64,000 bases of DNA from a phage. Below are positions 1,634 through 59,894 of the stretch, piece by piece. How positions within the stretch are numbered: position 1 is the stretch's first letter; each line of letters begins with the position of its first letter. Both the position numbers and the translations under genes were made by a program. The notes below the pieces were generated by a model. That model was given only the letters and a program-made list of their open reading frames with translations. It did not search any database and was not told the origin of the DNA. The stretch lies in assembly GCA_011915565.1 (NCBI GenBank), contig GCA_011915565.1_3920.1; one strand, given 5' to 3'.

Positions 1634-2491
1634 ATGTCTAAAGTTGTTAAAATGAAAGCTCCGGTAGAGAAGTACAATGGTACTGAACGTCAAACTCTGC
1701 GTTACCTGCTGAAAGATGTCTGGTTTTATTACCTGAATACTTCACCACGTCCGGGAAAAGGTAAGTCTATTGATAAGAAATTCCCAGGAAAAGATTGTAA
1801 CTACAGCGTTTCAATTCTGGCAGAAGATGGTAACAAGCTGTTTAAAGAGTTTACTAAGTCTAAGAAAAACCCAGAAGGTTGGGATAAAGTTACCACTGAA
1901 GCAGTTGATGCAGATGACTTCGAAGAGAAGTTTGGTTGCAAACCACCATTTGAAGCAGACACTTACTACATCTTGAAAGTAAGTCGTGCAGCAGCTTATA
2001 AAGATGGTGCTGTATGGACAGCTAAACAGTCATTCCCTGTAATGCTGATTGAAGAAGTAAATGGTAAGCGTGTAGCTGTTAAGCAGCCGATGAAGAAAAT
2101 CAAAGCTCAAGCATCTGACAAACATGAAGATGATAAGAACTATGATGTAATTCATCCAGATATTGCAGTTGGTAACGGTTCTTTTGGTAGTGTGATTCTT
2201 TCTACTCACTTCTACACTTTTGAGAACAATGTCTTGACAAAGCCTATTCAGGAACAGTTTATCATTGATACTCTTGTACCTTACACTGGTGGTAACGGTG
2301 CTAACGGTGAACCTGAACTGGATGAAGATGAACTGGCTATGCTTGGTCTTGATGGTGTCGAAGATAACGGTGAAATCACTGAAGAAGACGCAACAGACCA
2401 TAAATCTTCGAATGATTCTGATGATGGTGACGATGAAGACTTGCCAGACCCAGATGACGAAGAAGATGAAGACTTCGATACAGAAGACTAA
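1634..2491 (+). CDS. putative ssDNA-binding protein with acidic C-terminal tail
   Basis: 285 aa; C-terminus DDGDDEDLPDPDDEEDEDFDTED resembles acidic tails of phage SSBs (T7 gp2.5 / T4 gp32 style); follows helicase; good RBS. Confidence 0.6.
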   Translation: MSKVVKMKAPVEKYNGTERQTLRYLLKDVWFYYLNTSPRPGKGKSIDKKFPGKDCNYSVSILAEDGNKLFKEFTKSKKNPEGWDKVTTEAVDADDFEEKFGCKPPFEADTYYILKVSRAAAYKDGAVWTAKQSFPVMLIEEVNGKRVAVKQPMKKIKAQASDKHEDDKNYDVIHPDIAVGNGSFGSVILSTHFYTFENNVLTKPIQEQFIIDTLVPYTGGNGANGEPELDEDELAMLGLDGVEDNGEITEEDATDHKSSNDSDDGDDEDLPDPDDEEDEDFDTED

Positions 2492-12367: not shown

Positions 12368-12759
12368 TTAAGTTGAACAAAAAACAGTTAGAGTGGATTA
12401 AAGATTATGCCTCAGAGTGTGGCTCTTGCGAAAAGAATCACGTAAGATATTCAACATTCCATACGACCTTCACATTGTACATCAGCGACAACGTTCTAAG
12501 TGATTCCGTAGAAGATGGCGTAGCGTTACCTAATGAATTGCTTGACAAATTAGCTGTAGTCTCTGGAACTTGGTCTGAAGAAGACGGTCATGAATTATCT
12601 AATGATGTTGTCTTCTACACTCTTGAAAACATTATGAATCCAGAGTACATTATACTAATGACTTGTGCACAAGATTGTGTGCCATTACAAAACTTCATTA
12701 AAGAACACTGCGAAGAATTTATTACTAAACAGGTTCCTTGTCAGGTGGTGTTTGAATGA
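12364..12759 (+). CDS. hypothetical protein
   Basis: 131 aa ORF with start overlapping the upstream stop. Confidence 0.55.
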   Translation: MIKLNKKQLEWIKDYASECGSCEKNHVRYSTFHTTFTLYISDNVLSDSVEDGVALPNELLDKLAVVSGTWSEEDGHELSNDVVFYTLENIMNPEYIILMTCAQDCVPLQNFIKEHCEEFITKQVPCQVVFE

Positions 12760-13055
12760 GTAAAACAATTCGAAGAAAAGGTTTAAAGAACGTTCATGGA
12801 CTCTATGAGTGGAGAAATGAGGTACGTAACAGAGAAAATGCTTCAGATGTCTACTCCCATTCTGATATGATGTCCAGAAAAGGTGGCTCTTACGACTTCA
12901 CAAGCCAGCCTTGTAGAGAGATTAAGAAGGCCACTAAACGTCTTACAAGAACACAAATAAGGCAGCTTTCTAAGACATCCTTCTTAGATGAAGATTTTGA
13001 TATTGATAGCAAGTCTCCAAAGAAAGCCGCTAAGAACACTTATATGTATTGGTGA
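12756..13055 (+). CDS. hypothetical protein
   Basis: 99 aa ORF with overlapping start. Confidence 0.5.
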   Translation: MSKTIRRKGLKNVHGLYEWRNEVRNRENASDVYSHSDMMSRKGGSYDFTSQPCREIKKATKRLTRTQIRQLSKTSFLDEDFDIDSKSPKKAAKNTYMYW

Positions 13056-42567: not shown

Positions 42568-43983
42568 ATGAGCGAATTATTTAAACATGCGCACCTTCAT
42601 GCAGGTCGAACTGAAAATGGTGCTGTAAACCATACTTCATCAATGTCTGCTCTTGTAGACTTTTACAAAGCTGCTGGTTCAAGCCGTAGCAATGTAGAAA
42701 TCTTACCAGACCTGTTCTACAAAGCTTTGCGTGAGGATGTTGATGTTGCAGTTCGTATTTTACTGCATATGCGAGATGTACGAGAAGGTATGGGTGAGCG
42801 TAAGGCCTTCAGAACTGTTTTACTTCAAGCGATTGAAGACAAAGTTTTAGAGCCTACGCAGGTTCTTCGCATTATGGATAAGGTTGCAGAACTTGGTCGT
42901 TTTGATGACTTCAAAATCTTCGTAGGTACTCGTTTCGAGACAGATGCCTTCAAGCATTTAGAAGCAGCATTACTAGACCCTGCAACAGCAGGTTTGGCGG
43001 CTAAGTGGTTACCACGAGTCAAACCACGTCATAAGCAGTTTGTAAAACGTTTCTGCAAGTTTGCCAACTTGAGTGAGAAAGAGTACCGCACACTGTTGTC
43101 TGCACTATCTGATACAGTTGAGCAAAAAATCTCTGCTAATGAGTTTGGTAAGATTGATTACAGCAAGATTCCTTCACTTGCTGCTGCACGTTACCAAAAA
43201 CTCTTTAACCGTAAAGATGGGGAACGTTACAAAGCTTACATTGAGTCTTTATCAAAGGGCGAGGCTAAGATTAATGCTGGTGCTGTTTACCCATACGATG
43301 TGATTAAATCTGTTAAGTATGGTAATGCAGATGTTGCTAATGAGCAGTGGAAAGCACTACCAAACTGGATGGCAGAAGGTGAAAACATCCTATGTATGAC
43401 TGATGTTTCAAGCTCAATGTATTGGGTGAATTTTGGTTCAATCACTGCACTTGATATTGGTGTATCACTTGCCTTGTATGTAGCAGAACGCAATACAGGT
43501 TGCTTTAAGGATGAGTTGATGGTTTATTCAACAAACCCTCACTTCATCGAACTGAGTGGTGATTTACGAAACCGTCATCGTCAGGTGATGCGACACGTTG
43601 AATATGGCTCAACCAACTTACAAGCAGCTTTTGACCGCATTCTTGAAACAGGTAAAAGAAACAACTTGACTCAGAAAGATATGCCAAGTAAGCTTATCAT
43701 CTTCTCCGATATGGAGTTTAATCAGGTTGATGGTGCTAATGGTCGTACAAACTTCGAAGCAATTCGAGATAAGTACGAAAAAGCTGGATATGAGATGCCA
43801 CAACTGGTATTCTGGTACTTAGCAAACCGTAATGGTACTTGCGAAGTATCTATTAAGGATAACGGTGTAGCAATGGTATCTGGTTTCTCTCCAGCCACTT
43901 TAAAAGCTTTGCTTGGTGGTGAGAAGTTTGACCCAATCAGCGTAATGCTCAAAGCAGTAATGATTGACCGTTACATCTGGTAA
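42568..43983 (+). CDS. von Willebrand factor A (vWA) domain protein with N-terminal helical domain
   Basis: 471 aa; MIDAS-like DVSSSM at about residue 280; domain order resembles Ro60/TROVE or DUF2828-type proteins (inference). Confidence 0.7.
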   Translation: MSELFKHAHLHAGRTENGAVNHTSSMSALVDFYKAAGSSRSNVEILPDLFYKALREDVDVAVRILLHMRDVREGMGERKAFRTVLLQAIEDKVLEPTQVLRIMDKVAELGRFDDFKIFVGTRFETDAFKHLEAALLDPATAGLAAKWLPRVKPRHKQFVKRFCKFANLSEKEYRTLLSALSDTVEQKISANEFGKIDYSKIPSLAAARYQKLFNRKDGERYKAYIESLSKGEAKINAGAVYPYDVIKSVKYGNADVANEQWKALPNWMAEGENILCMTDVSSSMYWVNFGSITALDIGVSLALYVAERNTGCFKDELMVYSTNPHFIELSGDLRNRHRQVMRHVEYGSTNLQAAFDRILETGKRNNLTQKDMPSKLIIFSDMEFNQVDGANGRTNFEAIRDKYEKAGYEMPQLVFWYLANRNGTCEVSIKDNGVAMVSGFSPATLKALLGGEKFDPISVMLKAVMIDRYIW

Positions 43984-44002
43984 AAAGTTTTAAAAAGGGT
44001 AT

Positions 44003-44031
44003 TGACAATGTGTTTAATACCCTTTAATATG
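44003..44031 (+). promoter_or_regulatory. sigma70-like promoter (TTGACA-17-TAATAT) with overlapping inverted repeat
   Basis: GGGTATT...AATACCC palindrome spans the -35 and spacer; heads the tRNA array. Confidence 0.55.
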
Positions 44032-44148
44032 TTCTACATAGAAACGAGATGAGGGCTTTTCTAAGATACTGAAAAATATTTTAAAAAAGTTCTTGACAAC
44101 CACTAAAAAATAATGTTAAAGTGGTTACATAGAGTTTGAAAAGTTTAT

Positions 44149-44225
44149 CTCTGTTTAGCTCAGCTTGGTAGAGCGTTCCGTTTGGGGCGGTAAGGCCGGA
44201 GGTTCAAGTCCTCCAACAGAGACCA
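44149..44225 (+). tRNA. tRNA-Pro (anticodon TGG)
   Basis: Manual cloverleaf: acceptor CTCTGTT/AACAGAG, GGTTCAAGTCC T-arm, CCA encoded. Confidence 0.7.
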
Positions 44226-44232
44226 AATTAAT

Positions 44233-44310
44233 GTTCCAGTAGACAAAATGGTAAAGTCACCACTCTTTCAAAGTGGATATCTGAGGGTTCAAATCCCTTC
44301 TGGAACGCCA
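44233..44310 (+). tRNA. tRNA-Glu (anticodon TTC)
   Basis: Acceptor GTTCCAG/CTGGAAC; anticodon stem CCACT/AGTGG, loop CTTTCAA; CCA encoded. Confidence 0.7.
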
Positions 44311-44315
44311 GTTTT

Positions 44316-44392
44316 GACAGAAGACCAATTACAGCAAACTTAATCTTATTCATCTGAAGGTAAATCGGACAAAGAAGAGATTTGGTCTGGTC
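44316..44392 (+). other. tRNA-spacer structured element, copy 1 (CAGAAGACC...GGTCTGG)
   Basis: Conserved CAGAAGACCAATTACAGCAA head and TTGGTCTGG tail forming a 7-bp closing stem. Confidence 0.5.
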
Positions 44393-44401
44393 ATTAAGAA
44401 T

Positions 44402-44478
44402 TGCGGGTATAGAGAAAGGGTGTCTCACATGTCTCATTAGCATGGTATCGGCAGGTTCGACTCCTGCACCCGCCTCCA
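44402..44478 (+). tRNA. tRNA-Met (anticodon CAT)
   Basis: D-stem GAGA/TCTC, anticodon loop CTCATTA, T-arm GCAGG-TTCGACT-CCTGC, CCA encoded. Confidence 0.65.
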
Positions 44479-44480
44479 AA

Positions 44481-44550
44481 TTTACAGAAGACCGTTTACA
44501 GCAATACTTATTAAATTTTTAGCGGAAAAATTGAAAGATACGGTCTGGTA
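44481..44550 (+). other. tRNA-spacer structured element, copy 2
   Basis: TTTACAGAAGACCGTTTACAGCAA...ACGGTCTGG. Confidence 0.5.
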
Positions 44551-44561
44551 ATACTAAACAT

Positions 44562-44638
44562 GGTTAGGAAGCACATAAGGTATGTGCGGTCGCCTGTTAA
44601 GCGAATGGCACAGGGTTCGAATCCCTGACTAACCGCCA
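44562..44638 (+). tRNA. tRNA-Asn (anticodon GTT)
   Basis: Acceptor GGTTAGG/ACTAACC; anticodon loop CTGTTAA; T-arm CAGGG-TTCGAAT-CCCTG. Confidence 0.65.
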
Positions 44639-44646
44639 AATTAAAT

Positions 44647-44734
44647 GTGTCGTTATCCCGTAGATGGTAGCGGTGGGGACTGTAAATCCCTTGTCATTGA
44701 GACTCGGTAGGTTCGACTCCTACACGGCACACCA
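44647..44734 (+). tRNA. tRNA-Tyr (anticodon GTA), long variable arm
   Basis: 88 nt; anticodon stem-loop GGGGA-CTGTAAA-TCCCT; type II structure. Confidence 0.65.
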
Positions 44735-44739
44735 ATAAA

Positions 44740-44816
44740 GGCTATGTAGTTTAACTGGAGAAAATACTCCCCTGTCACGGGAGATGATGTGAGTTCAAGT
44801 CTCATCGTAGCCGCCA
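44740..44816 (+). tRNA. tRNA-Asp (anticodon GTC)
   Basis: Acceptor GGCTATG/CGTAGCC; anticodon stem CTCCC/GGGAG, loop CTGTCAC. Confidence 0.7.
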
Positions 44817-44875
44817 ATTTTGAGAGGGCTATTTAGTTCCTCCCTTAAAGAGTTCTTACGAGTATTCTTTAAAGG

Positions 44876-44952
44876 AGCAGAAGACCAAATACAGCAAGAA
44901 TGTATGAAATTTCAAGCCAATTTAATTTTGAAAATTTAAAACTTGGTCTGGC
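44876..44952 (+). other. tRNA-spacer structured element, copy 3
   Basis: GCAGAAGACCAAATACAGCAA...CTTGGTCTGG. Confidence 0.5.
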
Positions 44953-44963
44953 TCAACAAATTT

Positions 44964-45098
44964 ACAGAAGACCGTTTACAGCAAAACTTAAACAATCTAT
45001 TTCTCCGGTAAAGAAAAGGCGAAGGTTCGATTCCTTCACTCGGCAGATGTCGAGTTGGTGTAATGGTAGCACTTAAGATGATAAACAACGGTCTGGTA
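44964..45098 (+). other. tRNA-spacer structured element, copy 4, containing a degenerate tRNA-like segment
   Basis: TTTACAGAAGACCGTTTACAGCAA head; T-arm-like GAAGG-TTCGATT-CCTTC, hairpin ACTCGGCA/TGTCGAGT, D-arm-like TGGTGTAATGGTAGCAC, then ACGGTCTGG. Confidence 0.45.
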
Positions 45099-45239
45099 AT
45101 TATCTTTGTAGATAAGTTATTAAGCTTACCTGTGAGTATGCGACCACAAAGGGTGAAGGGTAAATTCTAGATTTAAACCCAAAAGGCACATCGCTACAGA
45201 CCTTAAGCAAGTCTGGGTAGCTTATCTACAAAGATAATT
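45098..45239 (+). other. perfect 19-bp inverted repeat enclosing 104 nt
   Basis: AATTATCTTTGTAGATAAG at 45098-45116 and its exact reverse complement at 45221-45239; lies between spacer element 4 and tRNA-Lys. Confidence 0.6.
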
Positions 45240-45243
45240 TAAT

Positions 45244-45319
45244 GGAAGTGTAGCAGAATGGTGATGCGGCAGACTTTTAATCTGACAGGCGATGGGTTCG
45301 AATCCCTCCACTTCTACCA
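45244..45319 (+). tRNA. tRNA-Lys (anticodon TTT)
   Basis: Anticodon loop CTTTTAA; T-arm ATGGG-TTCGAAT-CCCTC; paralog of the 46541 tRNA. Confidence 0.6.
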
Positions 45320-45397
45320 AATTCACCCTTAACTGAGAAACACCTGCGCGGCTGGAAACACCCACTCAACAGTTTCTCTAACTAGGGTACTTATTCT

Positions 45398-45474
45398 GGT
45401 TCAGTCGCAGATAAGGTAATGCAAGGGTCTCATAAGCCCTATGAATGTGGGTTCGATTCCCATCTGAACCTCCA
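45398..45474 (+). tRNA. tRNA with CAT anticodon (Met or lysidine-Ile)
   Basis: Acceptor GGTTCAG/CTGAACC; anticodon stem AGGGT/GCCCT, loop CTCATAA. Confidence 0.6.
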
Positions 45475-45475
45475 A

Positions 45476-45551
45476 GCTGGTATAGTTAAGAAGGTTATAA
45501 CACTCCCCTGATAAGGGAACATCGGTGGTTCGATTCCACCTACCAGTACCA
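45476..45551 (+). tRNA. tRNA-Ile (anticodon GAT)
   Basis: Acceptor GCTGGTA/TACCAGT; anticodon loop CTGATAA. Confidence 0.65.
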
Positions 45552-45566
45552 ATTTCAATAAAGTTG

Positions 45567-45595
45567 TTGACATTGAGATGTGACTCCTTTATACT
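45567..45595 (+). promoter_or_regulatory. sigma70-like promoter (TTGACA-17-TATACT)
   Basis: Inside the tRNA array, upstream of a 200-nt hairpin-rich spacer and tRNA-Arg. Confidence 0.55.
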
Positions 45596-45797
45596 AACCT
45601 TAGTTTTCGTTGCGTAGCGTCTATTTTGCAAATTTAAAATAAATGCAAACGACAATGTTTTTCTGGCAGTAGCTTGATAGGCTAAACACCAGTGAGGTCT
45701 TCCAATCCCTCATCAAAGAATTTGGCGTACTCGCCCACGGTATGATTAATAAGGTGGGCATCTTTAAGGGCTTTCTAAGAGAGTCTTTAAAGATAAT

Positions 45798-46016: not shown

Positions 46017-46099
46017 ATGGGACGATGTTAAGACTCTAAGGCATGAGCAACGGCCTCCAAAACCGTTTCAAAGGGGTTCAACTCCTCCGTCCCATGCCA
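46017..46099 (+). tRNA. tRNA-Trp (anticodon CCA)
   Basis: Acceptor ATGGGAC/GTCCCAT; anticodon loop CTCCAAA; 83 nt with enlarged D region; preceded by TATAAT. Confidence 0.55.
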
Positions 46100-46862: not shown

Positions 46863-46892
46863 ATTCAGAGGTCAAGTGAAAGACCGCTTTGA

Positions 46893-46950
46893 GTCAACTG
46901 AAGACCGTAACAAATTCCACGGAGTTGAGTTAGCGGCACAACTCCAGACC
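46893..46950 (+). other. tRNA-spacer structured element, diverged copy 5
   Basis: CTGAAGACCGTAACAAATTCC related to the CAGAAGACC head; enclosed by AGAGGTC/GACCTCT inverted repeat. Confidence 0.4.
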
Positions 46951-46958
46951 TCTTTCAT

Positions 46959-48253: not shown

Positions 48254-48284
48254 CTTCTAAGGATTCTTACGAGAGTCCTTAAAT

Positions 48285-58541: not shown

Positions 58542-59894
58542 ATGTGGAATCCAATTGTTAATGTAGATATTACATTGAACACCGCAGGAACTACAAGAGA
58601 AGGTTTTGGGCTACCACTATTTTTAGCTTCAACAGATAACTTTGAAGAAAGAGTCCGTGGTTACACTTCCTTAACTGAAGTTGCTGAAGATTTCGATGAA
58701 AACTCTGCTGCATATAAGGCTGCTAAACAACTTTGGAGTCAGACTCCTAAAGTAACTCAGCTTTATATTGGTAGACGTGCTATGCAGTACACTGTATCAA
58801 TTCCTGATGAGGTTACTGAGAGCACCGACTATTCTTTAACTGTAGCTGTGAGCGGTGGAGTTTCTCAGCCATTCCAGTACACTTCACAGTCAGAAGATAC
58901 TGCTGAGAAGGTGCTACAGCAGCTTAAAACTCAGATTGAAGCAGAGCCTTCTGTAAAAGACCTTGTTACCGTCAATGTAACTGGTGCTGGTGGTTCAGCA
59001 ACAATGGTAATCACCAAAGCGGGTGACAATGACTTCGTGAAGGTTACCACTACAGCACAAACAGTGTCAATTGCAAGTACAACTGCTGACACAGCATCGA
59101 CTGCTCTGGCAGCTATTGAGGCTTATTCAACTGACTGGTATTTCATTGCAGCAGAAGACAGAACTCAACAGTTTGTCTTAGCAATGGCTTCTGAGATTCA
59201 AGCTCGTAAGAAGATTTTCTTTACAGCTAACTCTGATGTAACAGCCTTACAAGGTACAGAATTAGCTAGTGCAAATGATGTTCCAGCACAGCTTGCTAAG
59301 AGTCAGTACACTCGTACCGTTTGCTTGTGGCATCACACAGCGGCAGAAGACTATCCAGAAATGGCATACATTGCTTATGGTGCTCCGTATGATGCAGGTT
59401 CAATTGCTTGGGGTAACGCACAGTTAACTGGTGTAGCTGCTTCTCTACAGCCATCTAATCAGAGACCTCTGACAAGTATTCAGAAGTCAGCTTTAGATGC
59501 ACGTCACTGTAACTTTATTGACCTTGATGGTGGTGTTCCAGTGGTTCGCAGAGGTATTACTTCTGGTGGGGAATGGATTGATATCATCCGTGGTGTTGAC
59601 TGGTTAGAATCAGACCTGAAAACTTCTCTGAGAGACTTGCTAATTAATCAGAAGGGTGGTAAGATTACTTATGATGATACTGGTATTACCCGTATTCGTC
59701 AAGTCATTGAAACCTCTCTGCAAAGAGCAGTCAACAGAAACTTCCTGTCATCTTACACAGTTAATGTTCCTAAAGCCTCTCAAGTTGCTTTAGCAGACAA
59801 GAAAGCTCGTATCCTGAAAGACGTTACCTTCTCAGGTATCTTAGCAGGGGCTATCTTGGATGTTGACTTGAAAGGTACAGTGGCTTACGAATAA
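58542..59894 (+). CDS. tail sheath protein (probable)
   Basis: 450 aa immediately upstream of a 148-aa tube-sized gene, chaperone pair and tape measure. Confidence 0.6.
   Translation: MWNPIVNVDITLNTAGTTREGFGLPLFLASTDNFEERVRGYTSLTEVAEDFDENSAAYKAAKQLWSQTPKVTQLYIGRRAMQYTVSIPDEVTESTDYSLTVAVSGGVSQPFQYTSQSEDTAEKVLQQLKTQIEAEPSVKDLVTVNVTGAGGSATMVITKAGDNDFVKVTTTAQTVSIASTTADTASTALAAIEAYSTDWYFIAAEDRTQQFVLAMASEIQARKKIFFTANSDVTALQGTELASANDVPAQLAKSQYTRTVCLWHHTAAEDYPEMAYIAYGAPYDAGSIAWGNAQLTGVAASLQPSNQRPLTSIQKSALDARHCNFIDLDGGVPVVRRGITSGGEWIDIIRGVDWLESDLKTSLRDLLINQKGGKITYDDTGITRIRQVIETSLQRAVNRNFLSSYTVNVPKASQVALADKKARILKDVTFSGILAGAILDVDLKGTVAYE

What the first reader, a model, noticed from the sequence alone, without database searches (positions are those of the whole stretch)
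44316..45243. Family of structured spacer elements (CAGAAGACC...GGTCTGG) interspersed among tRNA genes, plus a perfect 19-bp inverted repeat
Four spacers share a head motif CAGAAGACC(A/G)nnTACAGCAA and, 40-110 nt downstream, a tail (A/T)(C/T)GGTCTGG whose core pairs with the head (AGACCnn / nnGGTCT), giving closed stem-loops at 44316-44392, 44481-44550, 44876-44952 and 44964-45098. Two heads are identical over 24 nt (TTTACAGAAGACCGTTTACAGCAA). A diverged relative lies at 46893-46950. Immediately after copy 4 is a perfect 19-bp inverted repeat (45098-45116 / 45221-45239) enclosing 104 nt. Two conserved hairpins with loop TTCTTACGAG (44848-44875 and 48256-48280) also recur. These resemble the small stable RNAs co-transcribed with tRNAs in T4, and could be processing scaffolds, regulatory or decoy RNAs, or miniature mobile elements that have inserted into the array.
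Basis: seen in the sequence. Interest (0 to 1): 0.7.

Follow-up and report, generated by a model that had tools for sequence, protein, structure and literature searches.

The report
Phage small RNAs partnering a Ro60-like protein
The four repeated "spacers" in this Felix O1-like phage's tRNA cluster are genes of a widespread, so far undescribed small-RNA family that always sits beside a Ro60-like protein gene and shares its defining features with the enigmatic Class I RNAs of the social amoeba Dictyostelium.

Summary
Four elements (44315-44393, 44482-44551, 44875-44954, 44962-45099) share a 4-bp helix, an AGA/G internal loop, a 7-8-bp helix and the single-stranded motif UUACAGCAA.

The window is a Felixounavirus. 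The ORF directly upstream (42568-43983) has the Ro60 fold and is 97% identical to Bas63 gp130, a published counter of the Ppl defence.

The same RNA module (7-bp stem, 2 nt, ACAGCAA, variable loop, complementary strand, G) lies beside homologues of this protein, on the same strand:
- 14 of 16 phage lineages sampled
- 48 of 75 viral metagenome loci
- 65 of 80 bacterial genome loci

Stem sequences differ completely between lineages, so the pairing covaries.

Element 4 also carries a circularly permuted tRNA-like domain, as bacterial YrlA Y RNAs do. Other phages hold a third form with normal tRNA ends.

Best reading: these are Y-RNA-like partner RNAs of a divergent Ro60-like protein, released by tRNA processing. 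Binding and expression are inferred, not shown.

The only Rfam family that recognises them is Dictyostelium Class I RNA, and only below its threshold.

They are not mobile elements or mere processing spacers. The "relative" at 46893-46950 is not a member.

The parts
42568..43983 (+). Gene for a 471-aa Ro60-fold protein (Pfam DUF2828 + DUF7788; PHROG 850 'RNA-binding protein'), the proposed protein partner of the RNAs.
   Evidence: ORF. Pfam hits and PHROG hit. AF2 model has pLDDT 89.9. The top 12 Foldseek hits in the PDB are all Ro60 proteins: Xenopus 2i91 (TM 0.67), Thermus phage phiLo 9kop, Deinococcus 2nvo, at 11-16% identity. MIDAS residues D279, S281, S283, T349 and D381 are invariant in 39 homologues. 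The protein is 97% identical to Bas63 gp130.
44093..44122 (+). Sigma-70-like promoter (TTGACA-18-TAAAGT with TG) ahead of the first tRNA. A second lies at 44002-44030 and the next at 45567-45595.
   Evidence: Consensus scan only. No terminator-like site on the + strand between 44122 and 45567, so the four elements and nine tRNAs lie in one promoter-to-promoter stretch. This is inferred, not shown.
44315..44393 (+). Element 1, short form. Helix 1 is 44315-44318 / 44390-44393. The loop is AGA 44319-44321 opposite G 44389. Helix 2 is 44322-44328 / 44382-44388. The motif UUACAGCAA is 44329-44337.
   Evidence: Sequence, fold, family model R1 at 43.5 bits, E 4e-8. It lies between tRNA-Glu and tRNA-Met.
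44482..44551 (+). Element 2, short form. Helix 1 is 44482-44485 / 44548-44551. Helix 2 is 44489-44495 / 44540-44546. The motif is 44496-44504.
   Evidence: R1 scores 48.1 bits, E 3.4e-9. It lies between tRNA-Met and tRNA-Asn.
44875..44954 (+). Element 3, short form. Helix 1 is 44875-44878 / 44951-44954. Helix 2 is 44882-44888 / 44943-44949. The motif AUACAGCAA is 44889-44897.
   Evidence: R1 scores 35.4 bits, E 3e-6. Conserved in six Ounavirinae, where some have UUCAGCAA instead.
44962..45099 (+). Element 4, long form. It has the same closing module (helix 2 is 44969-44976 / 45087-45094; motif ends at 44984) around a circularly permuted tRNA-like domain.
   Evidence: R1 scores 32.0 bits, E 1.9e-5; this copy was not in the seed alignment. 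The fold gives a four-way junction.
45000..45072 (+). tRNA-like domain of element 4, in this order: hairpin 45000-45016; T arm 45021-45037 (GAAGG UUCGAUU CCUUC); acceptor-like hairpin 45038-45055 (ACUCGGC AGAU GUCGAGU); D arm 45058-45072.
   Evidence: Partial Rfam tRNA hit of 22-23 bits covering the anticodon-like arm, T arm and 3' acceptor strand. The acceptor hairpin has compensatory changes in Moogle (ACCCUUC/GAAGGGU) and Sf17 (ACACGUU/GGCGUGU). The T and D arms covary in long forms from seven phages.
45098..45239 (+). Structured RNA closed by a roughly 25-bp duplex (the 19-bp perfect inverted repeat). It contains a hairpin CAGAC-CUUAAGCAA-GUCUG whose loop resembles the family motif. It is a candidate RNase III site or a fifth, atypical RNA.
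   Evidence: Fold z = -5.8. Several outer-stem pairs have compensatory changes between the Felix and the Moogle/Sf17 groups. Function is inferred only.
44842..44875 (+). Hairpin with loop UUCUUACGAG directly before element 3. A second copy is at 48256-48280.
   Evidence: Sequence. The 10-mer is invariant in six Ounavirinae, and its exact copies are listed. Role unknown.

Best explanation
The four elements are genes for small non-coding RNAs that act as the RNA partners of the phage's own Ro60-like protein (ORF 42568-43983). In other words they are functional counterparts of Y RNAs for a divergent branch of the Ro60 fold, Pfam DUF2828/DUF7788.

Proposed mechanism, with the basis of each step:
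1. The RNAs are transcribed together with the tRNAs from the promoter-like sites at about 44002 and 44093. They are freed when RNase P and the 3'-end processing enzymes cut out the flanking tRNAs. The closing helices protect the ends. (Inferred.)
2. The conserved module is a terminal stem starting A-G and ending C-U followed by G, plus the adjacent single-stranded UUACAGCAA. This is the protein-binding site. (Inferred from its strict conservation and its co-occurrence with the gene.)
3. The variable interior is a payload. In element 4 it is a tRNA-like domain that could recruit or distract tRNA-binding enzymes, as proposed for bacterial YrlA. (Inferred by analogy.)
4. The resulting RNP acts in RNA surveillance or repair, or in counter-defence. 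The Bas63 orthologue gp130 counters the Ppl system. (Published experiment on the protein only.)
For: The protein partner has the Ro60 fold:
- The top 12 PDB matches are all full-length Ro60 proteins, and the MIDAS motif is invariant.
- It sits directly upstream on the same strand.

The RNA module travels with this gene family:
- A motif scan of loci around tblastn hits found the module within a few hundred nt of the gene in phages of Mycobacterium, Yersinia, Vibrio (two families), Citrobacter, Aeromonas, Cronobacter, Campylobacter, Listeria, Staphylococcus, Enterococcus, Bacillus and Prevotella (Lak).
- The structural frame is fixed: 24 of 26 short elements have 7/7 Watson-Crick pairs, and a G follows the 3' strand in nearly all of them.
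- All 7 pairs show double-sided changes. 99.4% of cells are paired, against 31-45% when the partner is slid by 1-3 columns.
- The partner strand was chosen by complementarity, so an independent control matters. 24 of 29 associated sites have a perfect stem of at least 7 bp, against 0 of 30 other ACAGCAA sites and 3.9% of random positions.

The family model R1 is specific:
- 34 hits in 213 kb, all on the gene strand and all next to the gene.
- 32 of 32 hits on the gene strand in 75 IMG/VR loci.
- A descriptor scan found elements on the gene strand in 48 of 75 loci against 4 on the opposite strand, and in 65 of 80 bacterial genome loci against 5.

Other support:
- Element 4 and the long forms from seven phages have the order hairpin, T arm, acceptor hairpin, D arm, which is the YrlA order in Chen et al. 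2014 (PMC4201824).
- Homologues of the protein gene lie near RNA ligase genes (RtcB, Rnl2) in Listeria, Aeromonas and Erwinia phages.
- Bas63 has the same four elements. Its gp130 was noted to be Ro60-like, with unidentified Y RNAs suspected among the tRNAs (PMC11482910).
Against: - No expression, end-mapping or binding data exist for these RNAs. The link to the protein rests on co-occurrence alone.
- gp130 alone, expressed from a plasmid or from the T7 genome, restores T7 growth on a Ppl strain (PMC11482910). The phage RNAs are therefore not strictly needed for that activity, unless host RNAs substitute.
- The canonical Ro-binding motif of Y RNAs (GNCGAAN0-1G) is absent, and Rfam's YrlA model does not hit at E < 10.
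- 27 of 75 and 15 of 80 homologous loci, and the Erwinia and Acinetobacter jumbo phages, show no element with my descriptor.
- In many loci the elements lie in the 5' leader of the gene, which would also fit a purely cis-regulatory role.
Confidence: 0.72

Rival explanations
1. The elements are cis-acting protein-binding operators. The module is a binding site through which the Ro60-like protein regulates its own mRNA or the tRNA transcript, rather than a stable trans-acting RNA.
For: - In most bacterial and many phage loci the elements lie directly upstream of the gene, in its leader.
- In Vibrio phage ValKK3 the 3' strand of the stem includes the start codon of the gene.
Against: - In the window, and in the Staphylococcus phage and mycobacteriophage Lewan loci, the elements lie downstream of the gene. 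In the window they also lie beyond promoter-like sites of their own.
- There are up to eight tandem copies.
- Some forms carry complete tRNA-like domains, and one form has tRNA ends with CCA. These features point to processed, stable RNAs.
Confidence: 0.12
2. The elements are tRNA-processing spacers. Structured linkers would guide RNase P, RNase E or RNase III cleavage of the polycistronic tRNA precursor, with no function of their own.
For: - All four lie between tRNA genes, within 5-15 nt of tRNA ends.
- A long duplex, a possible RNase III site, follows element 4.
Against: - Most tRNA junctions in the same array have no such element.
- The family occurs without flanking tRNAs in mycobacteriophage Lewan and the Staphylococcus phage locus.
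- The nine-nucleotide single-stranded motif is conserved across phyla and tracks the Ro60-like gene.
Confidence: 0.06
3. The elements are tRNA-related decoys acting independently of the Ro60-like protein, for example baits for host tRNA-targeting nucleases, like other phage tRNA-array functions.
For: - Element 4 and the long and tRNA-end forms carry authentic-looking T and D arms.
- According to work cited in PMC11482910, phage tRNAs are thought to give resistance to host tRNA nucleases.
Against: - Three of the four window copies have no tRNA-like part.
- The anticodon-like hairpin of element 4 is not conserved even in Moogle.
- The invariant part of the family is the stem plus UUACAGCAA, not the tRNA-like part.
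- The strict linkage to the protein gene would be left unexplained.
Confidence: 0.07
4. The elements are miniature inverted-repeat mobile elements that have inserted into the tRNA array.
For: - There are four copies with complementary ends, and two heads are identical over 28 nt.
Against: - There are no copies elsewhere in the 64-kb window and no target-site duplications.
- The positions are the same in six Ounavirinae and in Bas63.
- Across phyla the 'terminal repeats' differ completely in sequence yet keep one frame relative to an internal asymmetric motif, and the elements are always on the strand of one gene family.
Confidence: 0.02

Closest known systems
Dictyostelium Class I RNAs (Rfam RF01414; Kjellin et al. 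2021, PMC7919456)
   Same: - Both are about 50-68 nt long with the 5' and 3' ends joined by a 6-7-bp stem whose sequence varies with compensatory changes.
- Both have a conserved A-G start and a C-U-G(-U) end.
- In both, the motif CCUUACAGCAA (phage: nnU(U/A)ACAGCAA, with all five invariant Dictyostelium positions kept) follows the 5' strand directly, and the rest of the RNA is variable.
- RF01414 is the only non-tRNA Rfam family that repeatedly hits these elements. It scores 20.3, 19.7 and 12.8 bits on window copies and up to 29.8 bits in other phages. Seven tandem full-length hits lie in 1 kb upstream of an Aeromonas phage gene, the best with E 0.0028 after correction for all 4227 families.
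   Different: - All scores are below the gathering score of 41.5 bits.
- The hosts are phages and bacteria, not amoebae. There is no DUSE promoter, and the window copies have an extra outer helix and internal loop.
- The known direct binder in Dictyostelium is an RRM protein (Rnp1A/CIBP), not a Ro60-like protein.
- Kjellin et al. reported the class as unique to Dictyostelia.
- Whether the likeness reflects common descent, gene transfer or convergence is open.
Bacterial and phage Y RNAs: YrlA/YrlB (Rfam RF02553; Chen et al. 2014, PMC4201824) and Thermus phage phiLo Yrl1/Yrl2 (PMC12135203)
   Same: - Both are small RNAs encoded beside a Ro60-fold protein gene on the same strand, often in several copies.
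- In both, a terminal stem carries the presumed protein-binding module.
- One copy per genome has a tRNA-like domain in the order V, T, acceptor hairpin, D.
- Both occur near RNA-repair genes in some genomes.
   Different: - The protein is not a Pfam TROVE member; it hits DUF2828/DUF7788 instead and shows no significant sequence match to solved Ro60 structures.
- The conserved RNA motif is UUACAGCAA next to the stem, not GNCGAA(N)G or CGAA.
- RF02553 gives no hit on the window and only 21-26-bit partial hits on relatives, against a gathering score of 69.
T4 species 1 and 2 stable RNAs (rnaC, rnaD)
   Same: Both are small stable RNA genes embedded in a phage tRNA cluster.
   Different: The family model gives no match (best 15.8 bits, and that hit lies elsewhere in the T4 locus). 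The sequences lack the UUACAGCAA module. No T4 record appeared among the listed homologues of the Ro60-like protein.
Circularly permuted tRNA genes and tRNA-like domains
   Same: Element 4 has the T arm and 3' acceptor strand ahead of the 5' acceptor strand and D arm.
   Different: The acceptor stem is closed by a 4-nt loop and there is no CCA, so a functional tRNA cannot be restored. The anticodon arm is replaced by the closing module.

Membership tests
Dictyostelium Class I RNA (RF01414) | Short stem joining the 5' and 3' ends, variable in sequence with compensatory changes | tested here: met
   7-bp stem. All 7 pairs show double-sided changes in 25 sequences from 12 phage lineages. Control for partner selection.
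Dictyostelium Class I RNA (RF01414) | 11-nt motif CCUUACAGCAA next to the 5' stem strand, with U3, C6, C9, A10 and A11 nearly invariant | tested here: met
   The window copies read AAUUACAGCAA, GUUUACAGCAA, AAAUACAGCAA and GUUUACAGCAA. ACAGCAA is invariant in alignment A2. Feature definition from PMC7919456.
Dictyostelium Class I RNA (RF01414) | Length 42-65 nt | tested here: inconclusive
   Stem-to-stem cores in the window are 67, 58 and 68 nt, and 70-80 nt with the outer helix. Other phage copies are 50-66 nt. The true RNA ends are not mapped.
Dictyostelium Class I RNA (RF01414) | Conserved termini: AAG at the start, CUGU at the end | tested here: inconclusive
   The sequences AAG...CUGG(U) are in place in the window, and ...CUGU is present in many phages. 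The termini of the RNAs are unknown.
Dictyostelium Class I RNA (RF01414) | Score at or above Rfam's gathering score (41.5 bits) | tested here: not met
   20.3, 19.7 and 12.8 bits in the window. The best in any phage locus is 29.8 bits.
Dictyostelium Class I RNA (RF01414) | DUSE promoter about 60 nt upstream, in a dictyostelid genome | tested here: not met
   This is a phage genome and only sigma-70-like promoter matches are present.
Y RNA / YrlA (RF02553) | Encoded within a few kb of a Ro60 orthologue, on the same strand | tested here: met
   The elements lie 330-1100 nt downstream of a Ro60-fold gene on the same strand. The protein is a fold-level relative, not a Pfam TROVE member.
Y RNA / YrlA (RF02553) | Ro-binding motif GNCGAAN0-1G (or GGUCCGA bulged helix) near the 5' end | tested here: not met
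   The window has ACAGAAGACC. Relatives have unrelated sequences at that place, and the conserved motif is UUACAGCAA.
Y RNA / YrlA (RF02553) | tRNA-like domain with T arm, acceptor-like hairpin and D arm | tested here: met
   Met by element 4 only. Elements 1-3 lack it, as YrlB does.
Y RNA / YrlA (RF02553) | Score at or above Rfam's gathering score (69 bits) | tested here: not met
   No overlapping hit at E < 10 in the window. Relatives give 21-26-bit partial hits.
Y RNA / YrlA (RF02553) | Physical association with the Ro60 protein | not testable with these tools
   Needs RIP or EMSA.
Ro60 / TROVE protein (for ORF 42568-43983) | HEAT-repeat ring plus von Willebrand A domain with a MIDAS motif | tested here: met
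   Full-length Foldseek matches to Ro60 structures, TM up to 0.67. D279-x-S281-x-S283, T349 and D381 are invariant.
Ro60 / TROVE protein (for ORF 42568-43983) | Match to the Pfam TROVE domain, or sequence similarity to known Ro60 | tested here: not met
   Pfam gives only DUF2828 and DUF7788. phmmer and a profile search against PDB sequences give E of 0.8 or worse.
Miniature inverted-repeat transposable element | Terminal inverted repeats with target-site duplication, and dispersed copies | tested here: not met
   Copies occur only in this 800-nt stretch. No duplications flank them. Positions are fixed in relatives.

The most novel reading that the evidence does not exclude
The phage and bacterial RNAs and the Dictyostelium Class I RNAs may be one RNA family. 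They would be related by descent or transfer, or held to the same shape by a homologous partner. Proteins of the DUF2828 (Ro60-like) family, which papers also report from plants, would be their conserved partner.

One concrete prediction follows. DDB_G0281243 is the protein of unknown function that was pulled down with Class I RNA DdR-21 and is conserved in all Dictyostelia (bioRxiv 10.1101/2020.04.05.026054). It should be a DUF2828/Ro60-fold protein.

Probability: 0.3. Interest if true: 0.95.

Novelty: new variant of a known kind. Interest (0 to 1): 0.85.

Why it matters
- Homologues of the Ro60-like protein are encoded in 710 of 50,697 phage records and in many bacterial genomes. Its RNA partner was unknown: the authors of the Bas63 study could only guess that some annotated tRNAs might be Y RNAs. 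These elements supply concrete, testable candidates, with a defined binding module that can be mutated.
- The protein is an experimentally shown counter-defence factor against Ppl, so the RNP bears on phage-host conflict and on phage engineering.
- The family shows one protein-binding module in three circularly permuted architectures: free, enclosing a tRNA-like domain, and embedded in a tRNA-like RNA with normal ends. That is an unusual case of modular RNA evolution.
- Some annotated features in these arrays are probably mis-called. These include tRNAs of 113-121 nt, a 'suppressor tRNA', and small ORFs such as bas63_0137 and bas63_0138.
- The match to Dictyostelium Class I RNAs makes a 20-year-old open question, what those abundant RNAs do, directly approachable.

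Tried and rejected
- Rfam at gathering thresholds found only tRNAs, both on the window and on nine related loci.
- Rfam's YrlA model gave nothing on element 4 even in a 156-nt search. I therefore do not file the elements as YrlA.
- At first reading I considered hairpin-ribozyme or other small-ribozyme cores and a true permuted tRNA gene. I dropped both: no Rfam ribozyme hit appears at E < 10, and the acceptor stem is capped by a loop with no CCA.
- The 'diverged relative' at 46893-46950 is rejected.
- T4 rnaC and rnaD are rejected as relatives.
- My first reading of a long element at L016 2771-2907 was wrong. It is a tRNA-end form at 2716-2830.
- I could not find out whether Dictyostelium encodes a DUF2828 protein or what DDB_G0281243 is:
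  - the afdb50 structure library was unavailable;
  - the Avesson 2011 paper is not held;
  - a full-text search for DDB_G0281243 found only the preprint that names it;
  - the supplements hold nothing on it.
- The supplements of the PhageMaP paper, which would give fitness values for bas63_0137 and bas63_0138, are not held.
Full report
**What the window is**

- The region 44100-45600 is 94-98% identical to many Felix O1-like phages (Felixounavirus); 268 phage records match it.
- ARAGORN finds 26 tRNA genes between 44149 and 49368, all on the + strand.
- Rfam at curated thresholds finds only tRNAs.

**Checking the observation**

- The head pattern AGAAGACCnnnTACAGCAA occurs four times without mismatch, at 44319, 44486, 44879 and 44966, and nowhere else in the window.
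  - an outer 4-bp helix (TGAC/GTCA, TTAC/GTAA, GAGC/GCTC, TTAC/GTAA);
  - an internal loop of AGA opposite a single G;
  - an inner helix of 7-8 bp (AGACCAA/TTGGTCT or AGACCGT/ACGGTCT).
- Both helices covary among the four copies, and single-sequence folding recovers the structure for all four.
- The 19-bp inverted repeat and the two hairpins with loop TTCTTACGAG are as described.
- The proposed diverged copy at 46893-46950 has no complementary tail and is not found by the family model with filters off.

**Copy 4 holds a permuted tRNA-like domain**

- Between its head and tail lie, in order:
  - a 5-bp hairpin with a 7-nt loop (45000-45016);
  - a T arm, GAAGG UUCGAUU CCUUC (45021-45037);
  - a 7-bp hairpin, ACUCGGC-AGAU-GUCGAGU (45038-45055), which corresponds to an acceptor stem closed by a loop;
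  - a D arm (45058-45072).
- The fold gives this four-way junction. Rfam's tRNA model matches the first half at 22-23 bits.
- The order (hairpin, T arm, acceptor hairpin, D arm, with the RNA ends at the other side) is the one described for YrlA, the tRNA-like Y RNA of bacteria (Chen et al. 2014, PMC4201824).
- In Moogle and Sf17 the acceptor hairpin is rebuilt with different sequences (ACCCUUC/GAAGGGU and ACACGUU/GGCGUGU), while the T and D arms are kept.

**The neighbouring gene**

- The ORF that ends 165 nt before the first tRNA (42568-43983, 471 aa) hits Pfam DUF2828 and DUF7788 and PHROG 850 'RNA-binding protein'.
- It has no significant sequence match to any solved structure.
- An AlphaFold2 model built on 39 homologues is confident (pLDDT 89.9). 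Its 12 best matches in the PDB are all full-length Ro60 proteins: Xenopus (TM 0.67), human, Deinococcus and Thermus phage phiLo, at 11-16% identity.
- The MIDAS residues of the von Willebrand A domain are invariant in the family.
- The protein is 97% identical to gp130 of phage Bas63.
- A preprint reports that gp130 is structurally Ro60-like and counters the Ppl defence system. [quoted passage not shown] Bas63 carries the same four elements at the same places.

**The module travels with the gene**

- A tblastn search finds homologues of the protein in 710 phage records of very different kinds.
- I fetched 15 such loci from distinct lineages. In 13 of them, plus the window's own group, the motif (U/A)ACAGCAA occurs one to eight times within a few hundred nt of the gene, on its strand. 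The hosts are Mycobacterium, Yersinia, Vibrio (two families), Citrobacter, Aeromonas, Cronobacter, Campylobacter, Listeria, Staphylococcus, Enterococcus, Bacillus and Prevotella (Lak).
- In every case the 7 nt that end two bases before ACAGCAA are perfectly complementary to a stretch 40-130 nt downstream. The stem sequences are unrelated between lineages: AGACCGU, UGGACGC, GGACUGU, GGAUUAC, AGGAUGC, AUGGUAC, AGGAAUC, AAGACAC and others. A G follows the 3' strand almost invariably.
- On an alignment of 25 short elements, all seven pairs show changes on both sides. 99.4% of cells pair, against 31-45% when the partner is slid.
- I chose the partners by complementarity, so I ran a separate control. 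24 of 29 gene-associated sites have a perfect stem of at least 7 bp, against none of 30 other ACAGCAA sites and 3.9% of 5000 random positions.

**A covariance model and wider sampling**

- Model R1 finds 34 matches in 213 kb of window plus loci. All are on the gene strand and beside the gene.
- In the window it finds exactly the four elements, including copy 4, which was not in the seed.
- In 75 loci from viral metagenomes it finds 32 matches at E of 0.01 or better. All 32 are on the gene strand, and most lie within about 600 nt of the gene ends.
- A simple descriptor scan gives elements on the gene strand in 48 of these 75 loci, against 4 on the opposite strand.
- In 80 loci from bacterial genomes and MAGs of many phyla, the same scan gives 65 loci with 156 elements, against 5 on the opposite strand.

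**Three architectures of one module**

1. Short forms of 50-70 nt, such as window elements 1-3.
2. Long forms in which the variable loop is a permuted tRNA-like domain. These are window element 4 and copies in Moogle, Sf17, mycobacteriophage Lewan, and Cronobacter, Enterococcus and Bacillus phages. Their terminal stem, T arm and D arm covary.
3. Forms with normal tRNA ends, of which some end in CCA. Here the anticodon arm is replaced by a capped hairpin followed by UUACAGCAA or AUUCAGCA (Aeromonas L006 2494-2610, Vibrio L016 2716-2830, Cronobacter L007 6895-7015 and 7025-7137). Some of these are annotated as 113-121-nt tRNAs or as a 'suppressor tRNA'. Forms 2 and 3 are circular permutations of each other.

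**How it most likely works**

- Shown here: a conserved, covarying RNA structure with an invariant single-stranded motif; strict linkage in position and strand to a gene family with the Ro60 fold; and a YrlA-like tRNA domain in some copies.
- Shown by others: the Bas63 orthologue of the protein counters Ppl.
- Inferred:
  - The RNAs are transcribed with the tRNAs. Promoter-like sites lie at 44002 and 44093, with no terminator-like site before 45567.
  - The RNAs are freed by tRNA processing.
  - The stem plus UUACAGCAA is the site bound by the protein.
  - The tRNA-like payload recruits or distracts tRNA-binding enzymes.
- RNA ligase genes lie near the protein gene in Listeria, Aeromonas and Erwinia phages. 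This recalls the Ro60-Y RNA-RtcB operon of Salmonella described in the literature (PMC7790460).
- A caution: gp130 alone rescues T7 on a Ppl strain. The phage RNAs are therefore not indispensable for that effect.

**Comparison with known families**

- The elements work like Y RNAs but fail the membership tests. The canonical Ro-binding motif is absent, and Rfam's YrlA model gives nothing on the window and only 21-26-bit partial hits on relatives.
- The only other Rfam family that recognises them is Dictyostelium Class I RNA. It scores 12.8-20.3 bits on window copies and up to 29.8 bits elsewhere. Seven tandem full-length hits lie in the 1 kb upstream of the Aeromonas phage gene, the best at E 0.0028 after correction for all families.
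- The defining features of Class I RNAs are all present in the phage RNAs:
  - a length of about 60 nt;
  - a 6-bp terminal stem with compensatory variation;
  - the 11-nt motif CCUUACAGCAA beside the 5' strand, with five invariant positions;
  - a variable remainder;
  - AAG at the start and CUGU at the end (Kjellin et al. 2021; compare).
- The scores stay below Rfam's threshold of 41.5 bits, so I do not file the elements as members. The correspondence still covers about a dozen specified nucleotides in the same structural arrangement.
- Class I RNAs were reported as unique to Dictyostelia.
- One of the four proteins pulled down with a Class I RNA, DDB_G0281243, has no known function. I could not determine its fold with the tools at hand.

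**Other parts of the finding**

- The inverted-repeat element 45098-45239 is conserved as a structure. Several pairs of its outer stem have compensatory changes between the Felix and the Moogle/Sf17 groups.
- It contains a small hairpin whose loop, CUUAAGCAA (CUUUAGCAA in Moogle), resembles the family motif.
- A duplex of about 25 bp in a tRNA precursor is a plausible RNase III site. That is an inference.
- The hairpin with loop UUCUUACGAG is invariant in six Ounavirinae, and its role is unknown.

**Novelty**

- I found no description of this RNA family:
  - Rfam 15 has no matching family.
  - Full-text searches for DUF2828, Ro-like phage proteins, and Felixounavirus with Ro60 returned nothing on the RNAs.
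- The concept of a Ro60-like protein with adjacent partner RNAs in phages is known (PMC4201824, PMC12135203).
- I therefore rate this a new variant of a known kind, with an unexpected and testable link to an unexplained eukaryotic RNA class.

Noticed in passing
window 46019-46093 (+): A tRNA-like sequence with an anticodon loop reading CUCCAAA (CCA, Trp). It appears only as a weak tRNA-Sec model hit (23 bits) and is not called by ARAGORN. It may be an unannotated or degenerate tRNA-Trp.
   Followed up: no
window 45493-45797 (+): Weak hits to the tmRNA_permuted (28 bits) and tmRNA (15.7 bits) models, downstream of the strong promoter-like site 45567-45595. The stretch is a 245-nt non-tRNA spacer.
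   Followed up: no
window 46863-46958 (+): A stable hairpin-rich spacer between tRNA-Thr and tRNA-Val (z = -3.8). It is not a member of the family, and its function is unknown.
   Followed up: partly
window 44842-44875, 48256-48280; 59203-59212 (-): Hairpins with loop TTCTTACGAG. The first is invariant in six Ounavirinae. A third exact copy of the 10-mer lies on the minus strand far from the array.
   Followed up: partly
window 43157-43166 (+), inside the ORF: The 9-mer TTACAGCAA also occurs inside the Ro60-like gene, where it encodes the conserved peptide DYSK. It sits at the same place in the Moogle and mycobacteriophage homologues. It could be coincidence or an autoregulatory site.
   Followed up: no
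L182 (Bas63, MZ501086) 12749-13023 (-): The annotated small ORFs bas63_0137 and bas63_0138 lie antisense over elements 3 and 4 and the inverted-repeat RNA. They are probably spurious, and published knockouts of them would in effect be RNA knockouts.
   Followed up: partly
L006 2494-2610; L016 2716-2830; L007 6895-7015 and 7025-7137: RNAs of 113-121 nt annotated as tRNAs, including a 'suppressor tRNA'. They have normal acceptor, D and T arms, but the anticodon arm is replaced by a capped hairpin plus UUACAGCAA or AUUCAGCA. This is a third architecture of the family.
   Followed up: partly
L004 (Vibrio phage ValKK3) 4964-5006: The single element here lies in the leader of the Ro60-like gene, and the 3' strand of its stem includes the start codon. 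That hints at translational autoregulation in this phage.
   Followed up: no
L009 (Listeria phage WIL-1) 3429-3980: A ROOL RNA match (87 bits against a gathering score of 99) lies about 1 kb upstream of the Ro60-like gene and its three elements. RtcB-type and other RNA ligase genes follow downstream.
   Followed up: no
L101 (T4) 2054-2172 (-), rnaD: T4 species 2 RNA contains CACAGCAGAA near its 3' end, a faint echo of the motif, but the family model does not match it.
   Followed up: partly
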